Shown here: piece after piece, positions 367 to 50,513 of the stretch
Position numbering within the stretch: the first letter of the stretch is position 1
Layout: each line of letters starts with the position of its first letter
NCBI GenBank assembly: GCA_049296855.1
Contig: JBAQTF010000012.1
Span: 1,939-65,938, forward strand
Reading direction: 5' to 3'
Source of the DNA: Minisyncoccia bacterium
GTDB lineage: Bacteria; Patescibacteriota; Minisyncoccia; Phycocordibacterales; DATDWN01
Length of the DNA: 64,000 nucleotides
Notes under the pieces: model-generated
Told to the model about the DNA's origin: nothing
Seen by the model: the letters and a program-made list of their open reading frames with translations, nothing else
The model's database searches: none
Translations under genes and position numbers: made by a program

Positions 367-1202
367 GCTAGGGGGATTATATCACTTTTGTCATTTTCGG
401 TGCCTGTGAACCATTTTTGAGGCGAAATCACTACTTTTTTAGGATTACTATTAAGCCAAGCCCCCCACCAGCTAAATGTACTGTTTGCAATAATATTGTG
501 TTTACAAAGACTCATCAGTATAAGTTCTTCGTAGTCTGGAATTATAGTATCAGAAACGAAAATAATCGGATATTTTTTAGGGAAGTTCTCTTTTACCCAT
601 TCTATATCGTCGGAGAATACAAAAAACGTAGTTTTGGGAAATTTTTCATCAATTTTGATCATCCCATTTTCGTAGTATGAAATTGGTAAAATCCCATGTT
701 TATCAGAGATTTTTTTTATGGATACATAATCTCCACGTCGAATATGTATGCTTGTTGAATTTGGTAAAGAAATAATTTGCTTCATAACTTCTTGAGAGGC
801 TTTCCCTAATGGTCTTTTTAGCTTGAAATCATTTCTAATCGTATTTTCATTAGCTTTAAAATATTTTTCGTTGTTCCAGTGACCAATGAAATATCCATTA
901 TTTTGTGACAGAATATTTGGGTCAAAAGCAGATGATTTTTCTATAATTTTCTTGCTCTTTAAACCAAGTTTATTTAGGACTTTTTGAAAAGGGGAGTTGT
1001 AGGAAGCAACCTCTTTGTCTGATGCTTCTTCCAATTCCATTACAAAATTATTTATTCTTAGAGATCTTTGACTTTGGTTAGCCTTTTCTAAGTACGACGA
1101 ATCTATTTTTAAACTAGTTTTATGAATCAATGATAAATTACGCCCCAATGCATATTGAAACATTTGATTACCCAGACCGCCCTCTAATTTTATTATGATC
1201 AT
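351..1202 (-). CDS. Alpha-1,2-fucosyltransferase (GT11 family)
   Basis: The protein has the GGLGNQMFQYA, HIRRGDYV and IANSTFSWWGAWL motifs of FutC-like GT11 enzymes. The ORF-track start at 1229 is a TTG. The ATG at 1202 forms a TAATG stop/start overlap with the upstream gene and restores the typical MIIIKLEGGLGNQ N-terminus. Confidence 0.85.
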   Translation of the reverse strand: MIIIKLEGGLGNQMFQYALGRNLSLIHKTSLKIDSSYLEKANQSQRSLRINNFVMELEEASDKEVASYNSPFQKVLNKLGLKSKKIIEKSSAFDPNILSQNNGYFIGHWNNEKYFKANENTIRNDFKLKRPLGKASQEVMKQIISLPNSTSIHIRRGDYVSIKKISDKHGILPISYYENGMIKIDEKFPKTTFFVFSDDIEWVKENFPKKYPIIFVSDTIIPDYEELILMSLCKHNIIANSTFSWWGAWLNSNPKKVVISPQKWFTGTENDKSDIIPLAWTKL

Positions 1203-2848
1203 TAATTGACTATCCAATAACTCAGACAAGCTTTATTTGTAACTGGATTATTGCTCGATTTTATAGTGAAACTTGTACCGGATGTTCTGGCGTTTATAAC
1301 ATAATTTCGTCCTGTGCCTGTATTGCAAGTAATACCAAGTCTTGTGCCAAGAGATGAGTCTTCCATAATAAATATCTGACTATTAGCTGTTACTGCAGTC
1401 GTGTTAACTACTAGAGTACTACCTCCTGTCGGCATAGCAACACTACCAGCTGGAGCAGAGCCACAAGTAGAAGGCGTTGTAGTAGAATTACAATTTGAAA
1501 CTGTACCTAAGTTTGTGATATTTAACAGTCCTTTCACTGTAGTTGTAGCATTTGTCCGTCCAATGTTAATTGATGTTGCTGTTGTTGAACCAAAAGAAAG
1601 AAGTCCTGCAGAATCTGTATCAAAGCCTAATCCATTCGCTAGAACATTTATGAAATTTCCGAAGATGTCACCATTTACATGAAGAGTTGCTGTGGGCGTA
1701 CTTGTTGCGATTCCAACCTTACTATTTATTATCATGTTTTGGCCAGAACGACCGAATGTCATAGTTGTTGCATTCATTGTGCCAAAATTTAGTATTCCAC
1801 TTGTCACAGAATCAAACAGTGATCCAACTGGCATAAAGAAATTTCCAGAAGTAAGCATAGTATCTGAACCGTCGTCAGAAAGAAGAGCATTACCTATAGT
1901 TGTACTTGCTGTAAACTTTACCAGTCTGTTAATTATTCCTGAACCTGTTATTGATTGATTACTACTTGTATAACTTATTATTACTATTCCTGATCCACCT
2001 GATCCACCAGTATTAGTGTTGCCACCTCCACCTCCACCTCCAGTATTTGGATCTCCATTACCAGGAGTTGAACCACTGTCACTTCCATTTCCTCCACCTC
2101 CTATTCCACCTGAACCGGGTGTAATAGCATCTGTCGCGCCACCCCCTCCGCCAGCATAAGTTACATTAGTTCCAGAAATTGAATTTGCGAGGCCAGCTCC
2201 TCCGTCACTTCCATCTGTATGTCCACCAGCCAGATCTTCTCCTGCTGTAGAAGCACCTCCACCCCCCGCACCTCCATTTCCTGACCCACCCCATATTTGA
2301 TTACCCCCTCTATTTCCTTGTCCTCCATTTCCTGACCCACCATTTGAATCATCTCCAAGCCCAGCCGCGCCACCACCAGAACCACCATCTGCGCCAGTAG
2401 CTGTCGTTGTAGAAAAACTTGAGCCACCTCCTCCACCACCTGTAGAAGTAATAGTACTAAATATTGAATCACCCCCATTAGTTCCTTTACTTGTATATAC
2501 TGTTGCACCACCTCCACCACTGCCAACTGTTACAGAATACGACTGACTTGTAATACTAAAATTAGAATCATATTGATAACCACCCGCACCACCTCCACCA
2601 CCATTATATTGATTAGTTGTACCTCCTCCACCACCACCTCCACCAGCTACAACAAGAGCTTGAACAGTACCCCCACCAGTACCAGTGCAATCTAAAGTTC
2701 CACTGGTTGTAAAAGTGTGAATTGTATTTCCACCCGATTGGATAATAGTTCCTCCAGTACAATCTGATGAGAATGCAAAAACAGTTAAAGGAGAGGCTGT
2801 CAAAGTGATTGCTAAGAATAATGATAAGAATGTTACGATTTTTTTCAT
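1202..2848 (-). CDS. Glycine-rich secreted protein (signal peptide, long Gly/Ser/Thr low-complexity region, structured C-terminal domain)
   Basis: N-terminal signal peptide MKKIVTFLSLFLAITLTASPLTVFA. Poly-Gly tracts include GGGGGGGG and GSGNGGQGNRGGN. The C-terminal roughly 200 aa are non-repetitive. No family recognised. Confidence 0.6.
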   Translation of the reverse strand: MKKIVTFLSLFLAITLTASPLTVFAFSSDCTGGTIIQSGGNTIHTFTTSGTLDCTGTGGGTVQALVVAGGGGGGGGTTNQYNGGGGGAGGYQYDSNFSITSQSYSVTVGSGGGGATVYTSKGTNGGDSIFSTITSTGGGGGGSSFSTTTATGADGGSGGGAAGLGDDSNGGSGNGGQGNRGGNQIWGGSGNGGAGGGGASTAGEDLAGGHTDGSDGGAGLANSISGTNVTYAGGGGGATDAITPGSGGIGGGGNGSDSGSTPGNGDPNTGGGGGGGNTNTGGSGGSGIVIISYTSSNQSITGSGIINRLVKFTASTTIGNALLSDDGSDTMLTSGNFFMPVGSLFDSVTSGILNFGTMNATTMTFGRSGQNMIINSKVGIATSTPTATLHVNGDIFGNFINVLANGLGFDTDSAGLLSFGSTTATSINIGRTNATTTVKGLLNITNLGTVSNCNSTTTPSTCGSAPAGSVAMPTGGSTLVVNTTAVTANSQIFIMEDSSLGTRLGITCNTGTGRNYVINARTSGTSFTIKSSNNPVTNKACLSYWIVN

Positions 2849-12350: not shown

Positions 12351-13049
12351 CTACTCTTCCGGGAAGGGGTAAAGTCCGACGCTTTGCATCTCCTCGACGC
12401 ACCGCGACATGAAGTCGCGATAGTAGTCGAAGTATGGCTTACCCATCTCCTTGGCTTTCGGGAGGCGCAACATGTCCTCCCACTCAAGGTTGAACCAGAT
12501 CGCGTCGTAACACGACTGGATATTTCGGAACGTCGTTTGCGGATGTTTCCTACCGAGGTATTTCGGGATGCATGCCGGAATGTTGGGTCGGTGTTGTCCA
12601 CCCCGAATGAGGTTGAGTGCTCCCATGTTCGACAATCGATCTGCATCCTTGAGGGTCACTGTGACAGGGTTGTCCGCGTCACTGTTGCGCATTGAATGCT
12701 CCATCAATGCTTCACGCATGAACATGAGCTCGTCGTTTCTGAACTCCCCAACAGGCAGTAGCCCAAAGTATCGGTCCAACACTTCGCTTGTTTCACTGCC
12801 GAAGTGACGGTCGGTCGAGTGCATGAGTCCAACGACCCAGGTCATCTCGCCGACTCGCGGGGTTTCCGCGATGAGTGCGCTGGTCTGAGCGACCCGAAGG
12901 TCGTGGTCCCAGCCGTGCCCCATGGTTGTCTTTCCTGACGCGACGATGTCCTCGTGAGTCTTCTTCACCGCATCGTATAGAGCTTTGTATTTCGCTCTCA
13001 TTACCACGAATGTGTTGTACAGATACTGCTTTTTAGTCTCTGTTGCCAT
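12351..13049 (-). CDS. HD-domain protein (predicted metal-dependent phosphohydrolase), encoded in a GC-rich island
   Basis: H...HD...H...D pattern (GHGWDHDLRV, GLMHSTDRH, LKDADRL). Local GC is about 55-60% against about 35% in flanking genes. Purine-rich Shine-Dalgarno sequence AAAGGGGGG upstream. Confidence 0.7.
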   Translation of the reverse strand: MATETKKQYLYNTFVVMRAKYKALYDAVKKTHEDIVASGKTTMGHGWDHDLRVAQTSALIAETPRVGEMTWVVGLMHSTDRHFGSETSEVLDRYFGLLPVGEFRNDELMFMREALMEHSMRNSDADNPVTVTLKDADRLSNMGALNLIRGGQHRPNIPACIPKYLGRKHPQTTFRNIQSCYDAIWFNLEWEDMLRLPKAKEMGKPYFDYYRDFMSRCVEEMQSVGLYPFPEE

Positions 13050-37368: not shown

Positions 37369-37376
37369 TATAAAAA

Positions 37377-37414
37377 GGGCTGGGTACGTTGTTTGGAAAC
37401 GTACGAACCAGCCC
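37377..37414 (-). terminator. Hairpin terminator at the 3' end of GC-island 2 (minus-strand orientation)
   Basis: GGGCTGGGTACGT...ACGTACGAACCAGCCC stem (7+6 bp), followed on the minus strand by TTTTT. Confidence 0.6.
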
Positions 37415-37434
37415 TTGTGGTGGACGACGCTCGG

Positions 37435-37656
37435 TCATGACGCCTTCCTCTCCTGCGTTTTGTGACGAATGATGAGGCGCGCAACCTCAGTCACCATTTC
37501 TGACTTCTCGGGTTCTTTGATGAACCCCGCGGATTCGACCGCTGCATTCAAGATCTTGTTGTATCTTGGAGCAAAGAGTCGACCCTCAGTGGTCAGGACT
37601 TTTTCACATTCCCTGATCACTTTCAAAGCGATTTCACCAGCGTTCAAAATAATCAC
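37435..37656 (-). CDS. Small hypothetical protein (about 70 aa) in GC-island 2
   Basis: GC-rich ORF with an AGGAGGTG Shine-Dalgarno sequence. The track start at 37656 is a GTG that overlaps that sequence. A TTG at 37647 gives 8-nt spacing. No family recognised. Confidence 0.45.
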   Translation of the reverse strand: MIILNAGEIALKVIRECEKVLTTEGRLFAPRYNKILNAAVESAGFIKEPEKSEMVTEVARLIIRHKTQERKAS

Positions 37657-37720
37657 CTCCTTTTACTCTGGCTAGAGTTTACCATTCTAAATTTTTTTGT
37701 AAAGAGCTTATAAAAAGGAA

Positions 37721-37743
37721 GGCTCGTCGTATTACGACGAGCC
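37721..37743 (-). terminator. Perfect 10-bp hairpin between the two island-2 genes (possible internal terminator/attenuator)
   Basis: GGCTCGTCGT-ATT-ACGACGAGCC, followed on the minus strand by TTCCTTTTTAT. A second small hairpin CCTAGC-GATG-GCTAGG is adjacent. Confidence 0.5.
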
Positions 37744-37759
37744 TTTGACCTAGCGATGG

Positions 37760-37966
37760 CTAGGTAACTTCTTGTTCAGGGCCCTTGCGAGAAGCATTTC
37801 TCCTCGCGTTTGCTGCCCGAGAGAGGGTTGACATCGCCTGGTATACGTTTTCGTTTCTCCCAGCGTATCTCTTTACTACCTCGAGCATGAGGTTCCTATA
37901 GTCTCTGTCTGGGTACCTTTGACGCAAGTCTCGGAGCTCGTTCAACATCCGGTCTGTAATGACCAT
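37760..37966 (-). CDS. Small hypothetical protein (68 aa) in GC-island 2
   Basis: ATG start preceded by AAGGAGGG at 6-nt spacing. GC-rich. No family recognised. Arg-rich C-terminus. Confidence 0.5.
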   Translation of the reverse strand: MVITDRMLNELRDLRQRYPDRDYRNLMLEVVKRYAGRNENVYQAMSTLSRAANARRNASRKGPEQEVT

Positions 37967-37991
37967 AGCGGAGCCCTCCTTCTAGGGAATA

Positions 37992-38021
37992 ATTATACTA
38001 CATTAACAGGGCTTTTGTCAA
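37992..38021 (-). promoter_or_regulatory. Consensus sigma70 promoter TTGACA-N18-TATAAT driving the island-2 genes
   Basis: Minus-strand TTGACA at 38021-38016 and TATAAT at 37997-37992, about 25 nt upstream of the ribosome-binding site. Confidence 0.6.
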
Positions 38022-38056
38022 CTACTTAATCCACAGGCAATTCACATCTTATCCCA

Positions 38057-38512
38057 CTATTTCAATAGCTCATCAACTATACTTTTTACTATATCTCCAT
38101 CAGCTTTACCTTTCAGTTCCTTCATAAGTATGCCTATAAGCTGACCTGCTTTTGATTTGTCAGTTACTCCCAACTCTTCCATTTTTGCTTTTGCAATTTT
38201 CATTACTTCTCCGCGGGGCATCTGGGTTGGTAGGTAAGTTTCAAGTATCACAAGTTCAGTCCTTTCACTTTCAGCAAGTTCTGGTCGTCCACCTTTCGTA
38301 AATTGATCAATAGAATCTTTTCTTTGTTTTACCGCTCGTCGAATTACATTCAAAACTTCTTCATCAGTTAGTTCATCAGTCGGCATCTTTTTCATCGCCA
38401 CGAGTTCGTTTGTGAAGGCAGAAACGAGTCCTCGGACGACTCCAAGTTTTACAGCATCTTTTGCTTTCATAGCTTCCTTCATTTGATCTCTAATTTGTGT
38501 TTGTAGTGACAT
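38057..38512 (-). CDS. GatB/YqeY domain-containing protein
   Basis: Full-length YqeY-like pattern: MSLQTQIRDQMKEAMKAKD...LGVVRGLVSAF... Confidence 0.75.
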   Translation of the reverse strand: MSLQTQIRDQMKEAMKAKDAVKLGVVRGLVSAFTNELVAMKKMPTDELTDEEVLNVIRRAVKQRKDSIDQFTKGGRPELAESERTELVILETYLPTQMPRGEVMKIAKAKMEELGVTDKSKAGQLIGILMKELKGKADGDIVKSIVDELLK

Positions 38513-40019: not shown

Positions 40020-40649
40020 TTATTGTCTATTTTTCAAGGCATTTTTTATAGTGTCTGAGTCAGAGTATTCGAGTTCAGTTCCAGTTGAGAGTCCGCGGCC
40101 AAGAGTTGAGATTTTTATATTATTTTTGTCAGCAGGAGGTTTTAAAATCTGGGATAGATATGAGAGAGTATTTTCGCCCTCAGGATTGTAATTCAAGGCG
40201 ATAATAATCTCCTCTAAACCATTCTTCGTTTTTTTCTCAACTTGAGAGATCAGATCTTTTTGACGGATCCTTTTTTCTGGGGTTTTTTCAAGTATAGGAA
40301 CTGTTCCACCGAGAATAAAGTAGTATCCGTTATAAAATCTCGTTTTCTCTATATTTTCAAAATCTACATCATGAGAGACAATCATAAGCAGATTACTGTC
40401 ACGATTGCTGTCGCGGCAAATAGGACAGGTCGTTGTGGTTGCGTTTGGGAAAAATCTGAAACATGTGTCGCATGAGTGAACTGTCGAACGAACATCACTT
40501 ATAAGTTTCGCTAAATCATTTGCATACGACGGATTTCTGTTAAGTAAAAAATAAACAAACCTTTTTGCCTGGCGCGGTCCGATTCCCGGAAACTCCTTAA
40601 AGAGTTCTATCAATTTCTGCGTATTGTCCATAGTTTTATACTCATCCAT
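40020..40649 (-). CDS. recR: Recombination protein RecR
   Basis: N-terminal HhH, C4 zinc finger (CDTC...CPIC), Toprim domain. Confidence 0.85.
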   Translation of the reverse strand: MDEYKTMDNTQKLIELFKEFPGIGPRQAKRFVYFLLNRNPSYANDLAKLISDVRSTVHSCDTCFRFFPNATTTTCPICRDSNRDSNLLMIVSHDVDFENIEKTRFYNGYYFILGGTVPILEKTPEKRIRQKDLISQVEKKTKNGLEEIIIALNYNPEGENTLSYLSQILKPPADKNNIKISTLGRGLSTGTELEYSDSDTIKNALKNRQ

Positions 40650-40687
40650 TTTAGCAAATATCTATGATGATAAGAAGTTTTTTGGAT

Positions 40688-40716
40688 TTGACACGTTAGG
40701 TATTCGTTGTTAGTTT
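40688..40716 (+). promoter_or_regulatory. Promoter TTGACA-N17-TAGTTT for the island-3 gene
   Basis: Read directly from the sequence. It is followed by the Shine-Dalgarno sequence AAGGAGG at 40726-40732. Confidence 0.45.
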
Positions 40717-40739
40717 GTGTTGAGAAAAGGAGGTTGTAC

Positions 40740-41201
40740 ATGGGACATCCGAATCTGTCGGACGGGTTGAATAGATTGATTGATGCCACAGATATACCTG
40801 GAGCTACTTTGGAACTTCGAGAAGTCAAGGTCGGCCAGATCATCAAGGTCGTTTTCGGTGACGAGGGAAAGAAAACTTCTCTCACAATTCGCATCGACAA
40901 GCCAGCTGGTAAAGGGTGGGGTGAGGATTCAGCACTCGGGACCATTCTCGCAGTTGAACTTCAACCAGACAAAGTGGAGTCATTTCGGAAAGTTGATCTT
41001 CCTATTCCACCTATTGGTGAGAAATGTGCGCTTTTCTGTGCTTGTACACGAAACCCTGGGGCTCCATTTGGTATGACGATGTTACACGTTCATCATCTTA
41101 CCAAAGGGAGGCACTTCAGTTGGACAACCCGTCCAAATACCAACAATGAAATCGGGTGGCTTTTTCCAGAAACAGTCTCTGGCTGGTCAGTGCATGGCTA
41201 G
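40740..41201 (+). CDS. Hypothetical protein (153 aa) in GC-island 3
   Basis: ATG at 40740 with a perfect AAGGAGG Shine-Dalgarno sequence at 7-nt spacing. GC about 48-50%. No family recognised (contains CALFCAC...HVHH). Confidence 0.55.
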   Translation: MGHPNLSDGLNRLIDATDIPGATLELREVKVGQIIKVVFGDEGKKTSLTIRIDKPAGKGWGEDSALGTILAVELQPDKVESFRKVDLPIPPIGEKCALFCACTRNPGAPFGMTMLHVHHLTKGRHFSWTTRPNTNNEIGWLFPETVSGWSVHG

Positions 41202-41218
41202 TACGAGACGCGCGAATT

Positions 41219-41274
41219 GGTCGGAGGAATTGGCCTCCGACCATGAGGCACACTTAGTGTGCTTTTTTGTTTTT
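41219..41274 (+). terminator. Tandem hairpins terminating the island-3 gene
   Basis: GGTCGGAGG-AATTGG-CCTCCGACC, then GCACAC-TTA-GTGTGC followed by TTTTTTGTTTTT. Confidence 0.7.
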
Positions 41275-42655
41275 AAAACGAGTTAAAATCTTTGTCGGCG
41301 TGTTGTTTATCTATACTCTGAAAAGTAGCTTTCTTTTCGTTGAAAAATAGTTCCACTTTTCCGGTCTCACCATTTCTATGTTTTTCAATTAAAATTTCTG
41401 CGATGTTTGTCTTTTCTGCTTCTTCTTTGTATTTATCTTCACGGTGGATGAACATTACTACATCTGCATCCTGTTCGATTGATCCAGAATCTCGAAGGTC
41501 AGATAGGCGAGGACGACCACCACGGGCTTCAACAGCTCGAGATAGCTGTGATAGAGCTAGGACAGGGACATCGAGTTCACGAGCCAGGTTTTTTAAAGCA
41601 TGAGATATTTCTGTAGTTTGCTGTACTAGGTTGTCGTTTTTGGTTTGTGTTGGGACCATCAGTTGTAAGTAGTCCACAACAATAAGTCCGAGACCTTTTT
41701 CACTTTTCAGACGACGGGCGATTGAGCGCATCTTCAAAATATTATTTCCGGGTTGGTCGTCGATATAAATAGGTGCCTTACTTAGCTTATCAAGTGAGCT
41801 TTTGATTGCGTCAAAGTCACCTTGACGAGAAAGTTTTCCTGTTCGTAGTTTCCAAGCGTCAACGTTTGATTGTGCAGCGAGCATACGATCAACCAATTGT
41901 TGGGAAGACATTTCTAGAGAGAAAATACCGACAGGAATATTATGGTTGACAGCAGCCTGACGAGCAATATCGAGGGCTAGGGAAGTCTTTCCTGTACTAG
42001 GTCTTCCAGCAAGTATAATTAAATCTGATTTTTGTAAACCAGAAAGTTTGTTATCAATGTCCGTAAATCCAGTCGGTATTCCTCGCATACCATTACCGTC
42101 TGTGTGTAGTCTATCAAGCCTTTCCCACGCTTCAGCCAGTTCATCTTTGATAGGAACGAATTTATGTGAAGTGTTGAAGTTAGTAACATCAAAAAGTTTT
42201 TTCTCAGCATTATCAAGCATTTCTTCGAGTTCTTTATTTTCATCATAACCAATTTGAGAAATGTGATCTGAGGCCTCTATGAGACGCCTCATCATGTGTT
42301 TTTTTTGGACGATAAGAGCATAGTACCCGATGTTTGAAGAAGAAGGAACAATATTTACAATCTCTGTTAGATAGGTATTGCCTCCGACTTGGTCAAGCCA
42401 GCCTTTCTCTGACAATCTCGAAGAAACAGAGAGTAAATCAATCGGTGAACGCTTTGTAAAAAGTTCCATCATCGTTTCATAAATGATGTGATGTTTTTCG
42501 GAATAAAAAGAATCATGAGCAACTATTTCTGTAATATCATAAAGTGCTTCTGGACGAAGCATTATAGAACCAAGTAGCGCCATCTCTGCCTCCAAGTTTT
42601 GTGGAGGTATTCGCATTCTATTCTGTACCATCTGAGTTATTACAGTTTGAACCAT
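41273..42655 (-). CDS. dnaB: Replicative DNA helicase DnaB
   Basis: DnaB N-terminal domain plus RecA-like domain with Walker A motif GRPSTGKTSLALD. Confidence 0.9.
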   Translation of the reverse strand: MVQTVITQMVQNRMRIPPQNLEAEMALLGSIMLRPEALYDITEIVAHDSFYSEKHHIIYETMMELFTKRSPIDLLSVSSRLSEKGWLDQVGGNTYLTEIVNIVPSSSNIGYYALIVQKKHMMRRLIEASDHISQIGYDENKELEEMLDNAEKKLFDVTNFNTSHKFVPIKDELAEAWERLDRLHTDGNGMRGIPTGFTDIDNKLSGLQKSDLIILAGRPSTGKTSLALDIARQAAVNHNIPVGIFSLEMSSQQLVDRMLAAQSNVDAWKLRTGKLSRQGDFDAIKSSLDKLSKAPIYIDDQPGNNILKMRSIARRLKSEKGLGLIVVDYLQLMVPTQTKNDNLVQQTTEISHALKNLARELDVPVLALSQLSRAVEARGGRPRLSDLRDSGSIEQDADVVMFIHREDKYKEEAEKTNIAEILIEKHRNGETGKVELFFNEKKATFQSIDKQHADKDFNSF

Positions 42656-50252: not shown

Positions 50253-50513
50253 ATGTTTTACACATATATATTAAAAAGCAATAAAAATGGTAGATTATAT
50301 ACTGGTAGTACAAATGATTTACGGAAACGTCTTAAGCTCCATAATGACGGTAAGTCGAATTATACAAAAAAACATACACCGTATGAACTTATATATTATG
50401 AAGCTTGTTTAAATGATCATGATGCTAGAGTAAAAGAGATATATTTGAAAAGTGGTATGGGTAAGAGGTATATTAATAATCGCTTGAAGAGTTTCCTAAC
50501 TCTAACGGGATGA
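50253..50513 (+). CDS. GIY-YIG nuclease-domain protein (UPF0213/YhbQ-like)
   Basis: FYTYILKS...GRLYTGSTNDLRKRLKLHN shows the GIY..YIG motifs plus the conserved Arg. An 86-aa stand-alone domain. Confidence 0.75.
   Translation: MFYTYILKSNKNGRLYTGSTNDLRKRLKLHNDGKSNYTKKHTPYELIYYEACLNDHDARVKEIYLKSGMGKRYINNRLKSFLTLTG

What the first reader, a model, noticed from the sequence alone, without database searches (positions are those of the whole stretch)
40688..41274. GC-island 3: orphan 153-aa protein with a perfect AAGGAGG ribosome-binding site and a double-hairpin terminator between recR and dnaB
This is a plus-strand cassette wedged between two minus-strand housekeeping genes. It has a TTGACA -35 box, an AAGGAGG-N7-ATG start, about 48-50% GC, and two consecutive hairpins with a T-run.

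The protein is unrecognised. It contains CALFCACTRNPGAPFG and a HVHH cluster, which could be metal-binding.
Basis: seen in the sequence. Interest (0 to 1): 0.65.

Follow-up and report, generated by a model that had tools for sequence, protein, structure and literature searches.

The report
Rare accessory gene in CPR bacterium
A self-contained, probably horizontally acquired gene sits between recR and dnaB of a Patescibacteria (CPR) genome; it encodes a 153-residue all-beta protein from a very rare, uncharacterised family with one invariant cysteine, so it is real and accessory, but it is not a true orphan and there is no support for a Cys/His metal cluster.

Summary
Window 40740-41201 (+) is a 153-codon gene with TTGACA (40688), AAGGAGG (40727; spacer 6, not 7) and 47.8% GC, against 35.9 +/- 4% for the window's genes. 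Two hairpins plus a T-run abut the dnaB stop codon.

It is a real gene but not an orphan. An exhaustive HMMER search finds 30 other cluster representatives (27-46% identity). Every context examined looks Patescibacteria-like, and the neighbourhoods are unrelated.

There is no significant Pfam, NCBIfam, PHROGs, PADLOC or PDB match. A confident AlphaFold model (pLDDT 90) is all-beta and matches nothing in PDB or BFVD by Foldseek.

Only Cys102, in G-[AS]-C-T-[KR]-N-P, is invariant. Cys96, Cys100 and the HVHH histidines are not conserved, so a Cys/His metal cluster is unsupported.

None of 79 related dnaB loci carries the gene. Of the 71 with an adjacent dnaB-recR junction, most have under 200 bp there. 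Sixteen carry other, unrelated inserts; eight relatives have GC-rich antisense gene-terminator units like this one. The window's other GC islands are built the same way.

Best reading: a horizontally acquired, self-contained ("moron-like") accessory gene for a rare beta-protein seen only in CPR-like contexts, with a thiol-centred site. The biochemical function is inferred only.

The parts
40688..40693 (+). -35-like hexamer TTGACA of the cassette promoter. It overlaps, as the near-palindrome TTGACAC, the -35-like GTGTCA of a minus-strand promoter-like site that faces recR.
   Evidence: Sequence; pattern search; minus-strand site GTGTCA-16-TATCAT at 40694->40667.
40711..40716 (+). Weak -10-like hexamer TAGTTT, 17 nt after the -35.
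   Evidence: Sequence. It matches only 3 of 6 and was not called by the consensus scan. Inferred.
40727..40733 (+). Shine-Dalgarno AAGGAGG, 6 nt before the ATG.
40740..41201 (+). CDS of 153 aa (16.7 kDa, pI 7.0), a member of a rare protein family seen only in Patescibacteria-like contexts.
   Evidence: The codon-usage score is positive only in this frame: +0.20 against -0.17 to -0.61 in the other five. AlphaFold pLDDT is 89.7.
41037..41072 (+). Codons 100-111, the family's signature hairpin loop G-[AS]-C-T-[KR]-N-P-x-A-P-x-G (here C-A-C-T-R-N-P-G-A-P-F-G). The invariant Cys102 codon is 41043-41045.
   Evidence: Alignments A1/A2 and the per-column counts.
41218..41243 (+). Terminator hairpin 1 (10-bp GC-rich stem, 6-nt loop).
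41245..41274 (+). Terminator hairpin 2 (9 pairs, 3-nt loop) plus the T-run TTTTTTGTTTTT. The T-run overlaps the dnaB stop codon (41273-41275).
40020..40631 (-). recR, the left flank. The start at M7 (40631) agrees with the MAG annotation and with the relatives; an upstream ATG at 40649 is also possible.
41273..42655 (-). dnaB replicative helicase, the right flank.

Best explanation
The locus is a strain- or lineage-specific accessory gene. It was most likely acquired horizontally as a self-contained expression unit (promoter, strong ribosome-binding site, ORF, own double-hairpin terminator). It was inserted antisense into the otherwise short dnaB-recR junction of a Zambryskibacteria-like Patescibacteria chromosome.

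Its product is a soluble cytoplasmic 16.7-kDa all-beta protein (10 strands, 2 short helices). It belongs to a very rare family seen only in Patescibacteria-like contexts, some of whose members carry an extra C-terminal domain.

The functional centre is most likely the single invariant cysteine (C102). It sits at the end of a beta-strand, in the hairpin motif G-[AS]-C-T-[KR]-N-P-x-A-P-x-G. I infer a reactive thiol there: a catalytic nucleophile or a covalent or redox acceptor site.

Shown: the gene is real, the family exists, the gene is absent from relatives at this junction, its composition is atypical, and the cassette anatomy is as described.

Inferred: horizontal acquisition (confidence about 0.8), actual expression from these signals, and the thiol-based mechanism (about 0.4). 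The cellular role (stress, conflict or host interaction) is unknown.
For: Real gene:
- 30 other cluster representatives at 27-46% identity, E down to 4e-32, with a conserved motif pattern.
- Codon-usage score is positive only in the ORF's frame.
- AlphaFold with the 39-sequence alignment gives pLDDT 89.7 and pTM 0.81; the single-sequence run gave pLDDT 41.

Accessory:
- No hit (tblastn E<=1e-3) in any of 79 related dnaB loci (DnaB 53-88% identical). In 71 of them recR lies directly downstream of dnaB. The median aligned gap is 86 bp, against about 640 bp here.
- Family members sit in unrelated neighbourhoods with no recurrent partner gene.

Foreign composition:
- GC is 47.8% against 35.9 +/- 4%.
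- Amino-acid content explains about half of the excess (42.6% expected).
- The rest is synonymous: GC3 is 0.425 against 0.287 expected.

Cassette anatomy:
-.
- Similar antisense, GC-rich, terminator-bounded units, most with a Shine-Dalgarno-like site and three with a TTGACT-17-TATAAT promoter, occupy the same junction in eight relatives. They encode proteins with no detectable similarity to this one.
- The window's other GC islands are built the same way.

Thiol site:
- C102 is the only invariant residue of 39 sequences whose mean column identity is 20%.
- It is flanked by small residues (G100 31/39; A/S/G101 39/39) and by T103, K/R104, N105 and P106.

Background: HGT islands and single transferred genes, mostly Patescibacteria-to-Patescibacteria, are documented (PMC12455944).
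Against: - There is no direct evidence of transcription or translation.
- No donor, integrase, transposase or convincing target-site duplication was found. The only flanking direct repeat is 14 of 18 T-rich bases at 40678/41263, which is plausibly chance.
- The -10 element is weak, and the motif counts alone are not above chance.
- GC3 is only about 2 sd above the host mean. The gene could therefore be an older resident that was lost elsewhere.
- The closest available relatives are only genus-level (DnaB <=88%), so the gain is not dated.
- The junction is not a unique hot spot. The neighbouring cysS-dnaB and recR-L21 junctions are just as variable in this clade.
- The role of C102 is inferred from conservation alone. 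No partner His or acidic residue is invariant.
Confidence: 0.6

Rival explanations
1. Non-enzymatic binding module. The protein is a small beta-barrel-type adaptor that binds a ligand, peptide or nucleic acid, and C102 is a buried or ligand-contacting residue rather than a catalytic nucleophile. The extra C-terminal domain in long forms would add a second binding surface.
For: - All-beta architecture with no conserved His, Asp or Glu to partner the Cys.
- About 9 members add a ~70-aa C-terminal domain after a helical linker, typical of modular binders.
- The weak Foldseek noise hits are mostly small-barrel readers such as Spindlin/Tudor and PilZ.
Against: - A purely structural Cys is rarely the single invariant residue of a family at 20% mean column identity.
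- No fold match reaches significance: best E is 0.2 and TM is below 0.3.
- No internal repeat or relation to the C-terminal domain was detected.
Confidence: 0.3
2. Conflict-system cargo: a phage-derived moron, or a single-gene anti-phage or anti-defence factor, left in the chromosome by a mobile element.
For: - Moron-like anatomy and deviating composition.
- Patchy distribution and variable neighbourhoods.
- The junction also hosts selfish-looking genes in relatives, namely PDDEXK_3/GxxExxY proteins.
- The best BFVD hit is an uncharacterised phage protein, though weak: E 0.05, TM 0.36/0.45.
Against: - No phage, integrase or transposase gene within +/-10 kb.
- No homologue in IMG/VR, INPHARED phages or PLSDB plasmids.
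- No PHROGs or PADLOC match below E 0.03, and each match comes from a single member.
- No partner gene.
Confidence: 0.15
3. One reading: a metal-binding protein that uses the CALFCAC cysteines and the HVHH histidines.
For: - The window protein has three Cys within seven residues and three His within four, on adjacent predicted strands.
- C96 is kept in 24/39, and H116/H118 in about half of the members.
Against: - Only C102 is invariant. C100 is Gly in 31/39. H119 is kept in 12/38. Many members have no His at 116-119.
- One Cys cannot build a mononuclear site unless it bridges subunits.
- No sequence-profile match to any PDB chain.
Confidence: 0.08
4. An ordinary conserved lineage gene at its ancestral position, or no gene at all (a chance ORF in a GC-rich non-coding RNA).
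For: GC-rich islands in AT-rich genomes are often structured RNAs; the region has strong hairpins.
Against: - The gene is absent from all 79 related loci.
- Homologues share 27-46% protein identity.
- The coding signal is frame-specific.
- No Rfam match even at E<=10, apart from noise.
- The hairpins lie downstream of the stop codon.
Confidence: 0.02

Closest known systems
Phage 'morons' (self-contained promoter-gene-terminator units with deviating base composition inserted between two genes; concept from Hendrix and colleagues, cited from my own knowledge)
   Same: The unit has its own sigma70-like promoter, a strong ribosome-binding site, a single ORF and a factor-independent terminator. Its GC content differs from its neighbours, it is wedged between two genes, and it is absent from relatives.
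   Different: It lies in a bacterial chromosome between housekeeping genes, not in a prophage. No phage genes are nearby, and no homologue occurs in any phage or viral collection searched.
Horizontally transferred genes and small genomic islets between core genes in Patescibacteria (PMC12455944)
   Same: A single accessory gene with atypical composition, flanked by conserved core genes. All family contexts examined look Patescibacteria-like, which fits mostly within-CPR exchange.
   Different: - This is a one-gene unit of about 590 bp, far below the size usually called an island.
- No mobility genes are present.
- Similar antisense GC-rich cassettes recur at the same junction in eight relatives, with proteins that show no detectable similarity to this one.
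MlaD/MCE domain (PF02470), the only Pfam model with any signal
   Same: Residues 20-56 give a weak alignment to profile positions 17-53: a beta-hairpin pattern with hydrophobic alternation and a Gly.
   Different: The score of 18.4 bits is below the 25.1-bit gathering cut-off. Only 3 of 39 members hit. There is no signal peptide or TM helix, and no MCE structure appears among the Foldseek hits. It is not a member.
Small all-beta cysteine enzymes (sortases; YkuD L,D-transpeptidases). A resemblance recalled from memory.
   Same: An all-beta protein of about 150 residues with one essential-looking Cys preceded by small residues, and a conserved Arg/Lys about 20 residues downstream (R/K124 in 38/39).
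   Different: No conserved His upstream of the Cys. There is no sequence-profile hit to any PDB chain and no significant Foldseek hit to any PDB structure. Both of these families have solved structures, by my recollection.

Membership tests
Any curated protein family (Pfam-A, NCBIfam, PHROGs, PADLOC) | Score at or above the family's threshold for the window protein or its homologues | tested here: not met
   - Pfam: only MlaD, at 18.4 bits against a 25.1-bit cut-off.
- NCBIfam: none for P0001, and only noise at E>=0.007 for other members.
- PHROGs and PADLOC: single-member hits at E>=0.03.
MlaD/MCE domain | Gathering-level match to PF02470 and an MCE beta-barrel fold | tested here: not met
   The match is sub-threshold and present in only 3 of 39 members. 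No MCE structure appears among the 50 best Foldseek PDB hits listed.
Known protein folds in PDB / BFVD | Significant structural match of the confident model (pLDDT 89.7) | tested here: not met
   - Foldseek PDB: best E 0.21, TM <=0.28.
- BFVD: best E 0.052, TM 0.36/0.45, to an uncharacterised phage protein.
   C102 is 39/39. The others are C96 24/39, C100 3/39, H116 19/38, H118 20/38 and H119 12/38.
Phage moron | Own promoter and own factor-independent terminator flanking a single ORF | tested here: met
   TTGACA-17-TAGTTT (weak -10), AAGGAGG, and a double hairpin plus T-run. These are sequence motifs only; transcription was not measured.
Phage moron | Base composition different from the flanking genes | tested here: met
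   47.8% GC against 35.9 +/- 4%. GC3 is 0.425 against 0.287 expected from the host's codon usage.
Phage moron | Located inside a phage or prophage genome | tested here: not met
   All neighbours within +/-10 kb are housekeeping genes. No homologue in IMG/VR or INPHARED.
Integron gene cassette | Promoterless ORF bounded by an attC recombination site, with attC-like sequence shared between cassettes and an integrase nearby | tested here: not met
   The cassette has its own promoter-like site. No sequence is shared between the window's insert and the inserts of relatives. No integrase lies within +/-10 kb.
Toxin-antitoxin or multi-gene defence system | A conserved partner gene adjacent in different genomes | tested here: not met
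   An all-vs-all comparison of neighbours across 8 family loci finds no recurrent partner outside the two closely related loci L004 and L006.
Conserved core gene of the lineage | Present at the same position in related genomes | tested here: not met
   0 of 79 related dnaB loci carry it, including the 71 that keep the dnaB-recR junction.

The most novel reading that the evidence does not exclude
The 153-aa protein founds a new fold and enzyme class, seen so far only in CPR-like contexts, built around a single reactive cysteine (for example a self-processing or covalent-adduct-forming beta-barrel). It also travels as one example of a class of integrase-free, GC-rich, antisense promoter-gene-terminator mini-cassettes. 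These populate junctions between core genes in Zambryskibacteria-like genomes: three more in this window, and eight at the same junction in relatives. That would imply a cassette-exchange mechanism, perhaps natural transformation plus recombination in the flanking core genes, and a shared pool of small accessory proteins for these episymbionts.
Probability: 0.2. Interest if true: 0.65.

Novelty: new variant of a known kind. Interest (0 to 1): 0.4.

Why it matters
CPR/Patescibacteria genomes are tiny, and a large share of their genes are uncharacterised.

This locus gives a clean, well-delimited example of how such genomes gain small accessory functions. One-gene, self-expressing units are dropped between conserved housekeeping genes, recurrently at the same junctions.

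It also defines a new, very rare protein family with a confident predicted structure that matches nothing solved, and with a single invariant cysteine. That makes it an easy target for biochemistry (mass spectrometry, thiol probes, a C102 mutant).

If the mini-cassette pattern generalises, it would be a simple marker for the flexible gene pool of uncultivated episymbionts.

If not, this is an ordinary hypothetical accessory gene.

Tried and rejected
1. Family and structure databases for the window protein and all 39 family members: Pfam, NCBIfam, PHROGs, PADLOC, and PDB by sequence and by profile. Nothing significant.

2. The word-indexed homologue search found only the protein itself, and few members with the profile. 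The family came only from the exhaustive HMMER search.

3. Single-sequence AlphaFold was useless (pLDDT 41). The alignment-based run was good.

5. The C-terminal extension domain of the long forms has no homologues outside the family and no Pfam or PDB match.

6. An internal-duplication test (N half against C half against the extension, by hhalign) was negative.

7. Non-coding RNA reading: no Rfam match at gathering score or at E<=10. Rejected on coding evidence.

8. Phage or plasmid origin: IMG/VR (twice), INPHARED and PLSDB all negative. The JGI metagenome scans added only two fragments.

9. Co-occurrence with the window's other island proteins, or with any recurrent neighbour: none.

10. 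Shared boundaries, attC-like or repeat sequences between this insert and the inserts in relatives: none. Only a weak 14-of-18 T-rich flanking repeat was found.

11. The idea that dnaB-recR is a special hot spot was rejected. The neighbouring junctions are equally variable.

12. A functional link to dnaB or recR (for example a helicase loader) was rejected, because the slot is empty in most relatives and is filled by unrelated proteins in others.

Full report
**What is there**

The window comes from a Minisyncoccia (Patescibacteria/CPR) MAG, GCA_049297715.1, contig JBAQUU010000002.1.

Between recR (40020-40631, minus strand) and dnaB (41273-42655, minus strand) lies a plus-strand ORF. It runs from ATG 40740 to TAG 41201 and encodes 153 aa.

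Upstream signals:
- TTGACA at 40688-40693.
- A weak -10, TAGTTT, after a 17-nt spacer.
- AAGGAGG at 40727-40733, 6 nt before the ATG.

Downstream are two perfect hairpins, 41218-41243 and 41245-41265, then TTTTTTGTTTTT. That T-run overlaps the dnaB stop codon. The 90-nt stretch folds with z = -3.6, and none of 200 shuffles folds as well.

The ORF is 47.8% GC. Forty-five long ORFs of the window average 35.9% (sd 4.0).

The same sequence, including both junctions, occurs 100% identical in two independently assembled read sets. It is therefore not a mis-assembly.

Counted alone, TTGACA-type promoters and AAGGAGG are not more frequent in the window than in shuffles. It is their position that is informative: 3 of the 7 AAGGAGG sites and both promoter-type sites precede GC-island ORFs.

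**Is it a gene?**

Yes, on three lines of evidence.
- The codon-usage log-odds score is positive only in the ORF's frame: +0.20, against host genes at 0.26 +/- 0.07 and the other five frames at -0.17 to -0.61.
- An exhaustive HMMER search of 1.84 billion cluster representatives found 31 proteins with E<=1e-3 and 24 with E<=1e-10. Identities run from 27 to 46% over essentially the whole length.
- With a 39-sequence alignment, AlphaFold gives pLDDT 89.7 and pTM 0.81, compared with pLDDT 41 from the single sequence. This shows real co-evolutionary signal.

No Rfam family matches the region.

So the protein is not an orphan. It belongs to a very small family, and the word-indexed search had missed it.

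**The protein family**

Most members are 138-169 aa. About nine are 257-328 aa; these add a helical linker and a ~70-aa C-terminal domain.

The conserved features:
- An N-terminal M-x-H-P-N-L-S-P-x-L-N peptide.
- L-D-L-R-x-V-x-x-G.
- K-P-A-G.
- The signature G-[AS]-C-T-[KR]-N-P-x-A-P-x-G-x-T-M-L.
- G-[RK]-x-L-x-W.

Only C102 is invariant (39/39). R/K124 is 38/39 and G111 is 35/38.

C96 is 24/39 and C100 is 3/39 (the column is Gly in 31). H116, H118 and H119 are 19, 20 and 12 of 38.

The model is all-beta with two short helices:
- Strands: 23-25, 34-39, 46-54, 65-73, 95-104, 112-117, 119-121, 125-130, 138-141, 146-152.
- Helices: 8-16 and 76-84.
- C102 lies near the end of strand 95-104, just before the N-P-x-A-P-x-G loop.

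There is no signal peptide or TM segment visible in the sequence.

What does not match:
- Pfam, NCBIfam, PHROGs, PADLOC and PDB (sequence and profile) give nothing significant. The one Pfam signal, MlaD, is sub-threshold and present in 3 of 39 members.
- Foldseek finds nothing in PDB (best E 0.2, TM <0.3). In BFVD it finds only a weak hit to an uncharacterised phage protein.
- The C-terminal domain of the long forms has no relatives outside the family.
- The two halves of the protein are not detectably related to each other.

**Accessory or core?**

Using DnaB as the probe, 79 species-level genomes of the same clade were fetched. Many are labelled Zambryskibacteria, and DnaB identity is 53-88%.

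- In 71 of them recR lies directly downstream of dnaB, as here. The wider order cysS-dnaB-recR-L21-rmuC-yqeY is widely kept.
- None of the 79 loci contains a homologue of the 153-aa protein (tblastn E<=1e-3).
- The median dnaB-recR gap is 86 bp. Fifty-three of 71 are <=200 bp, against about 640 bp in the window.

The gene is therefore an insertion relative to the common state, or a very widely lost gene.

Family members elsewhere sit in quite different, CPR-like housekeeping neighbourhoods:
- after FtsH, next to a VTT/DedA gene;
- after dnaE;
- between mnmA and alaS;
- in a glycosyltransferase region of a Falkowbacteria MAG;
- among hypothetical genes.

There is no recurrent neighbour, except between two closely related contigs.

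No homologue exists in IMG/VR, INPHARED phages or PLSDB plasmids. No integrase, transposase or phage gene lies within 10 kb.

**Composition**

Applying the host's synonymous codon usage to this amino-acid sequence predicts 42.6% GC. About half of the excess therefore comes from the Gly/Pro/Thr/Ala-rich protein.

The other half is synonymous: GC3 is 0.425 against 0.287 expected.

In other hosts the family gene is also usually above background. The excess is +12 points in L010, +2 to +5 in five others, and -3 in one.

This fits a moderately ameliorated foreign gene. It does not prove it.

**A recurring type of unit**

Sixteen relatives have more than 350 bp in the same junction, and the contents differ.

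Eight relatives carry GC-rich inserts on the strand opposite to dnaB/recR. These are L019, L022, L024, L027, L029, L036, L047 and L091, whose gap is 295 bp. Gap GC is 43-53% against 38-41% for the locus.
- They have GC-rich hairpin terminators that end a few bases from the dnaB stop. Two hairpins in a row are visible in L022, L024 and L047.
- A Shine-Dalgarno-like site was seen in six of them (not in L022 or L047).
- A TTGACT-17-TATAAT promoter precedes the L022, L024 and L047 genes.
- This is essentially the anatomy of the finding.
- They encode at least two kinds of protein with no detectable similarity to the window's family: a 142-159-aa protein with an N-terminal hydrophobic (TM-like) segment, and small basic 58-103-aa proteins.

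Four relatives carry a low-GC, co-directional PDDEXK_3 (GxxExxY-type) gene.

Others carry further ORFs.

No sequence is shared between the window's insert and any of these.

Inside the window, the other GC islands have the same build:
- 12351-13049 (minus): 232 aa, 54% GC, GC3 0.69.
- 37760-37966 (minus): 68 aa, behind a perfect TTGACA-18-TATAAT and AAGGAGG.
- 37435-37647 (minus): 70 aa, behind AAGGAGG.
- Each ends in a GC-rich hairpin plus a T-run.

The junction is not uniquely hot. cysS-dnaB and recR-L21 are equally or more variable in the clade. The pattern is rather that junctions between core genes in these genomes are commonly occupied by small, self-contained accessory units.

HGT islands and single transferred genes, mostly within Patescibacteria, have been reported (PMC12455944).

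**How it most likely works**

Shown: a real, rare gene, seen only in CPR-like contexts, with its own expression signals, absent from relatives at this site, and atypical in composition.

Inferred, at about 0.8: it was acquired horizontally as a unit. Because it is antisense and carries a terminator, it splits what in relatives with 3-20-bp gaps is probably a dnaB-recR co-transcript. A minus-strand promoter-like site (GTGTCA-16-TATCAT, 40694->40667) faces recR from the same AT-rich 108-bp spacer.

Inferred, at about 0.4: the product acts through C102 as a reactive thiol. The reasons are:
- it is the sole invariant residue of a divergent family;
- it is preceded by obligatory small residues;
- it is followed by T-[KR]-N-P at a hairpin.

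Whether it is a nucleophile, a self-processing site or a covalent or redox acceptor cannot be decided here.

The main rival is a non-catalytic binding barrel (about 0.3). A phage-defence or moron origin is possible but has no positive support (about 0.15). The Cys/His metal-cluster idea is unlikely (about 0.08).

**Comparison and novelty**

In anatomy, the closest known thing is the phage moron. It meets three defining features: own promoter, own terminator and deviating composition. It fails the fourth, since it is not in a phage.

As a genomic event it is an ordinary single-gene HGT islet.

The protein itself belongs to no described family and matches no fold by the tools available.

I rate it a new variant of a known kind. 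It is of moderate interest, mainly for two reasons: the recurrent mini-cassette pattern, and a cleanly defined, structurally confident, uncharacterised family with one invariant cysteine.

Noticed in passing
window 37370-38057 (minus strand): This GC island holds two unannotated mini-genes.
- A 68-aa ORF (37966->37760) sits behind a perfect TTGACA-18-TATAAT (38021->37992) and AAGGAGG (37981->37975), and is followed by a 12-bp-stem terminator (37745->37719).
- A 70-aa ORF with a TTG start (37647->37435) sits behind TTTACA-16-TAAACT and AAGGAGG (37662->37656), and is also followed by a hairpin and T-run.

No gene is called here in the listing. GC3 is 0.59 against about 0.28 expected. There is no Pfam hit, and no homologue in any fetched locus.
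   Followed up: partly
window 12351-13049 (minus strand): This is the strongest GC island of the window: a 232-aa ORF at 54% GC (GC3 0.685 against 0.32 expected). It has its own promoter-like site, an AGGGGGG ribosome-binding site and a hairpin terminator. The protein carries a GHGWDHD motif reminiscent of HD-domain hydrolases, but it has no Pfam match at E<=0.1 and no homologue in the fetched loci.
   Followed up: partly
L019, L022, L024, L027, L029, L036, L047, L091 (dnaB-recR gaps; coordinates): Eight related genomes carry GC-rich, antisense small-gene units with hairpin terminators at the very same junction. Most have a Shine-Dalgarno-like site, and three have a TTGACT-17-TATAAT promoter. 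They encode proteins with no detectable similarity to the window's family: a 142-159-aa protein with an N-terminal hydrophobic (TM-like) segment in L022/L024/L047, and small basic 58-103-aa proteins in the others.
   Followed up: partly
L030, L035, L064, L084 (dnaB-recR gaps): Four relatives instead carry a low-GC (24-31%), co-directional 125-126-aa PDDEXK_3 (GxxExxY-type) nuclease-fold gene at this junction (Pfam E 1.4e-21 for the L030 copy). L053/L081 and L065 carry further ORFs that were not characterised.
   Followed up: partly
L015-L093, junctions cysS-dnaB and recR-L21: The neighbouring core-gene junctions are as variable as dnaB-recR. Gaps over 350 bp occur in 17 of 55 (cysS-dnaB) and 33 of 55 (recR-L21) loci. 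Small insertions between conserved genes therefore look like a general trait of this clade.
   Followed up: no
window 40678-40695 and 41263-41280: An imperfect T-rich direct repeat (14 of 18 identical; TTTTTTGGATTTGACACG / TTTTTTGTTTTTAAAACG) brackets the cassette almost exactly, from the -35 to the end of the terminator. It could be a target duplication, but it is short and AT-rich, so chance is likely.
   Followed up: no
window 50253-50513 (L001 19514-19774): A free-standing 86-aa GIY-YIG domain gene lies between an ABC ATPase gene and a MacB/FtsX permease gene. It may be another small selfish or accessory insert.
   Followed up: no
L012 4730-5542; L006 3105-3635: The called start of family member P0021 (257 aa) is probably too far downstream. 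The ORF extends to a 270-aa form identical to P0039, which restores the conserved MGHRNLS N-terminus. In L006, an upstream in-frame ATG would give 176 aa instead of the called 146.
   Followed up: partly
window 1202-2848 (minus strand): A 549-aa ORF has unusual codon-position composition (GC2 0.61, GC3 0.18). This suggests a low-complexity Gly/Ala/Pro/Ser/Thr-rich protein, and it accounts for the 42% GC bump at 2-3 kb.
   Followed up: no
L006 4477-4950: A LAGLIDADG homing-endonuclease-type gene is inserted between the VTT-domain gene and the UPF0102 gene in one of the two syntenic loci that carry distant family members. It is absent from the other (L004).
   Followed up: no
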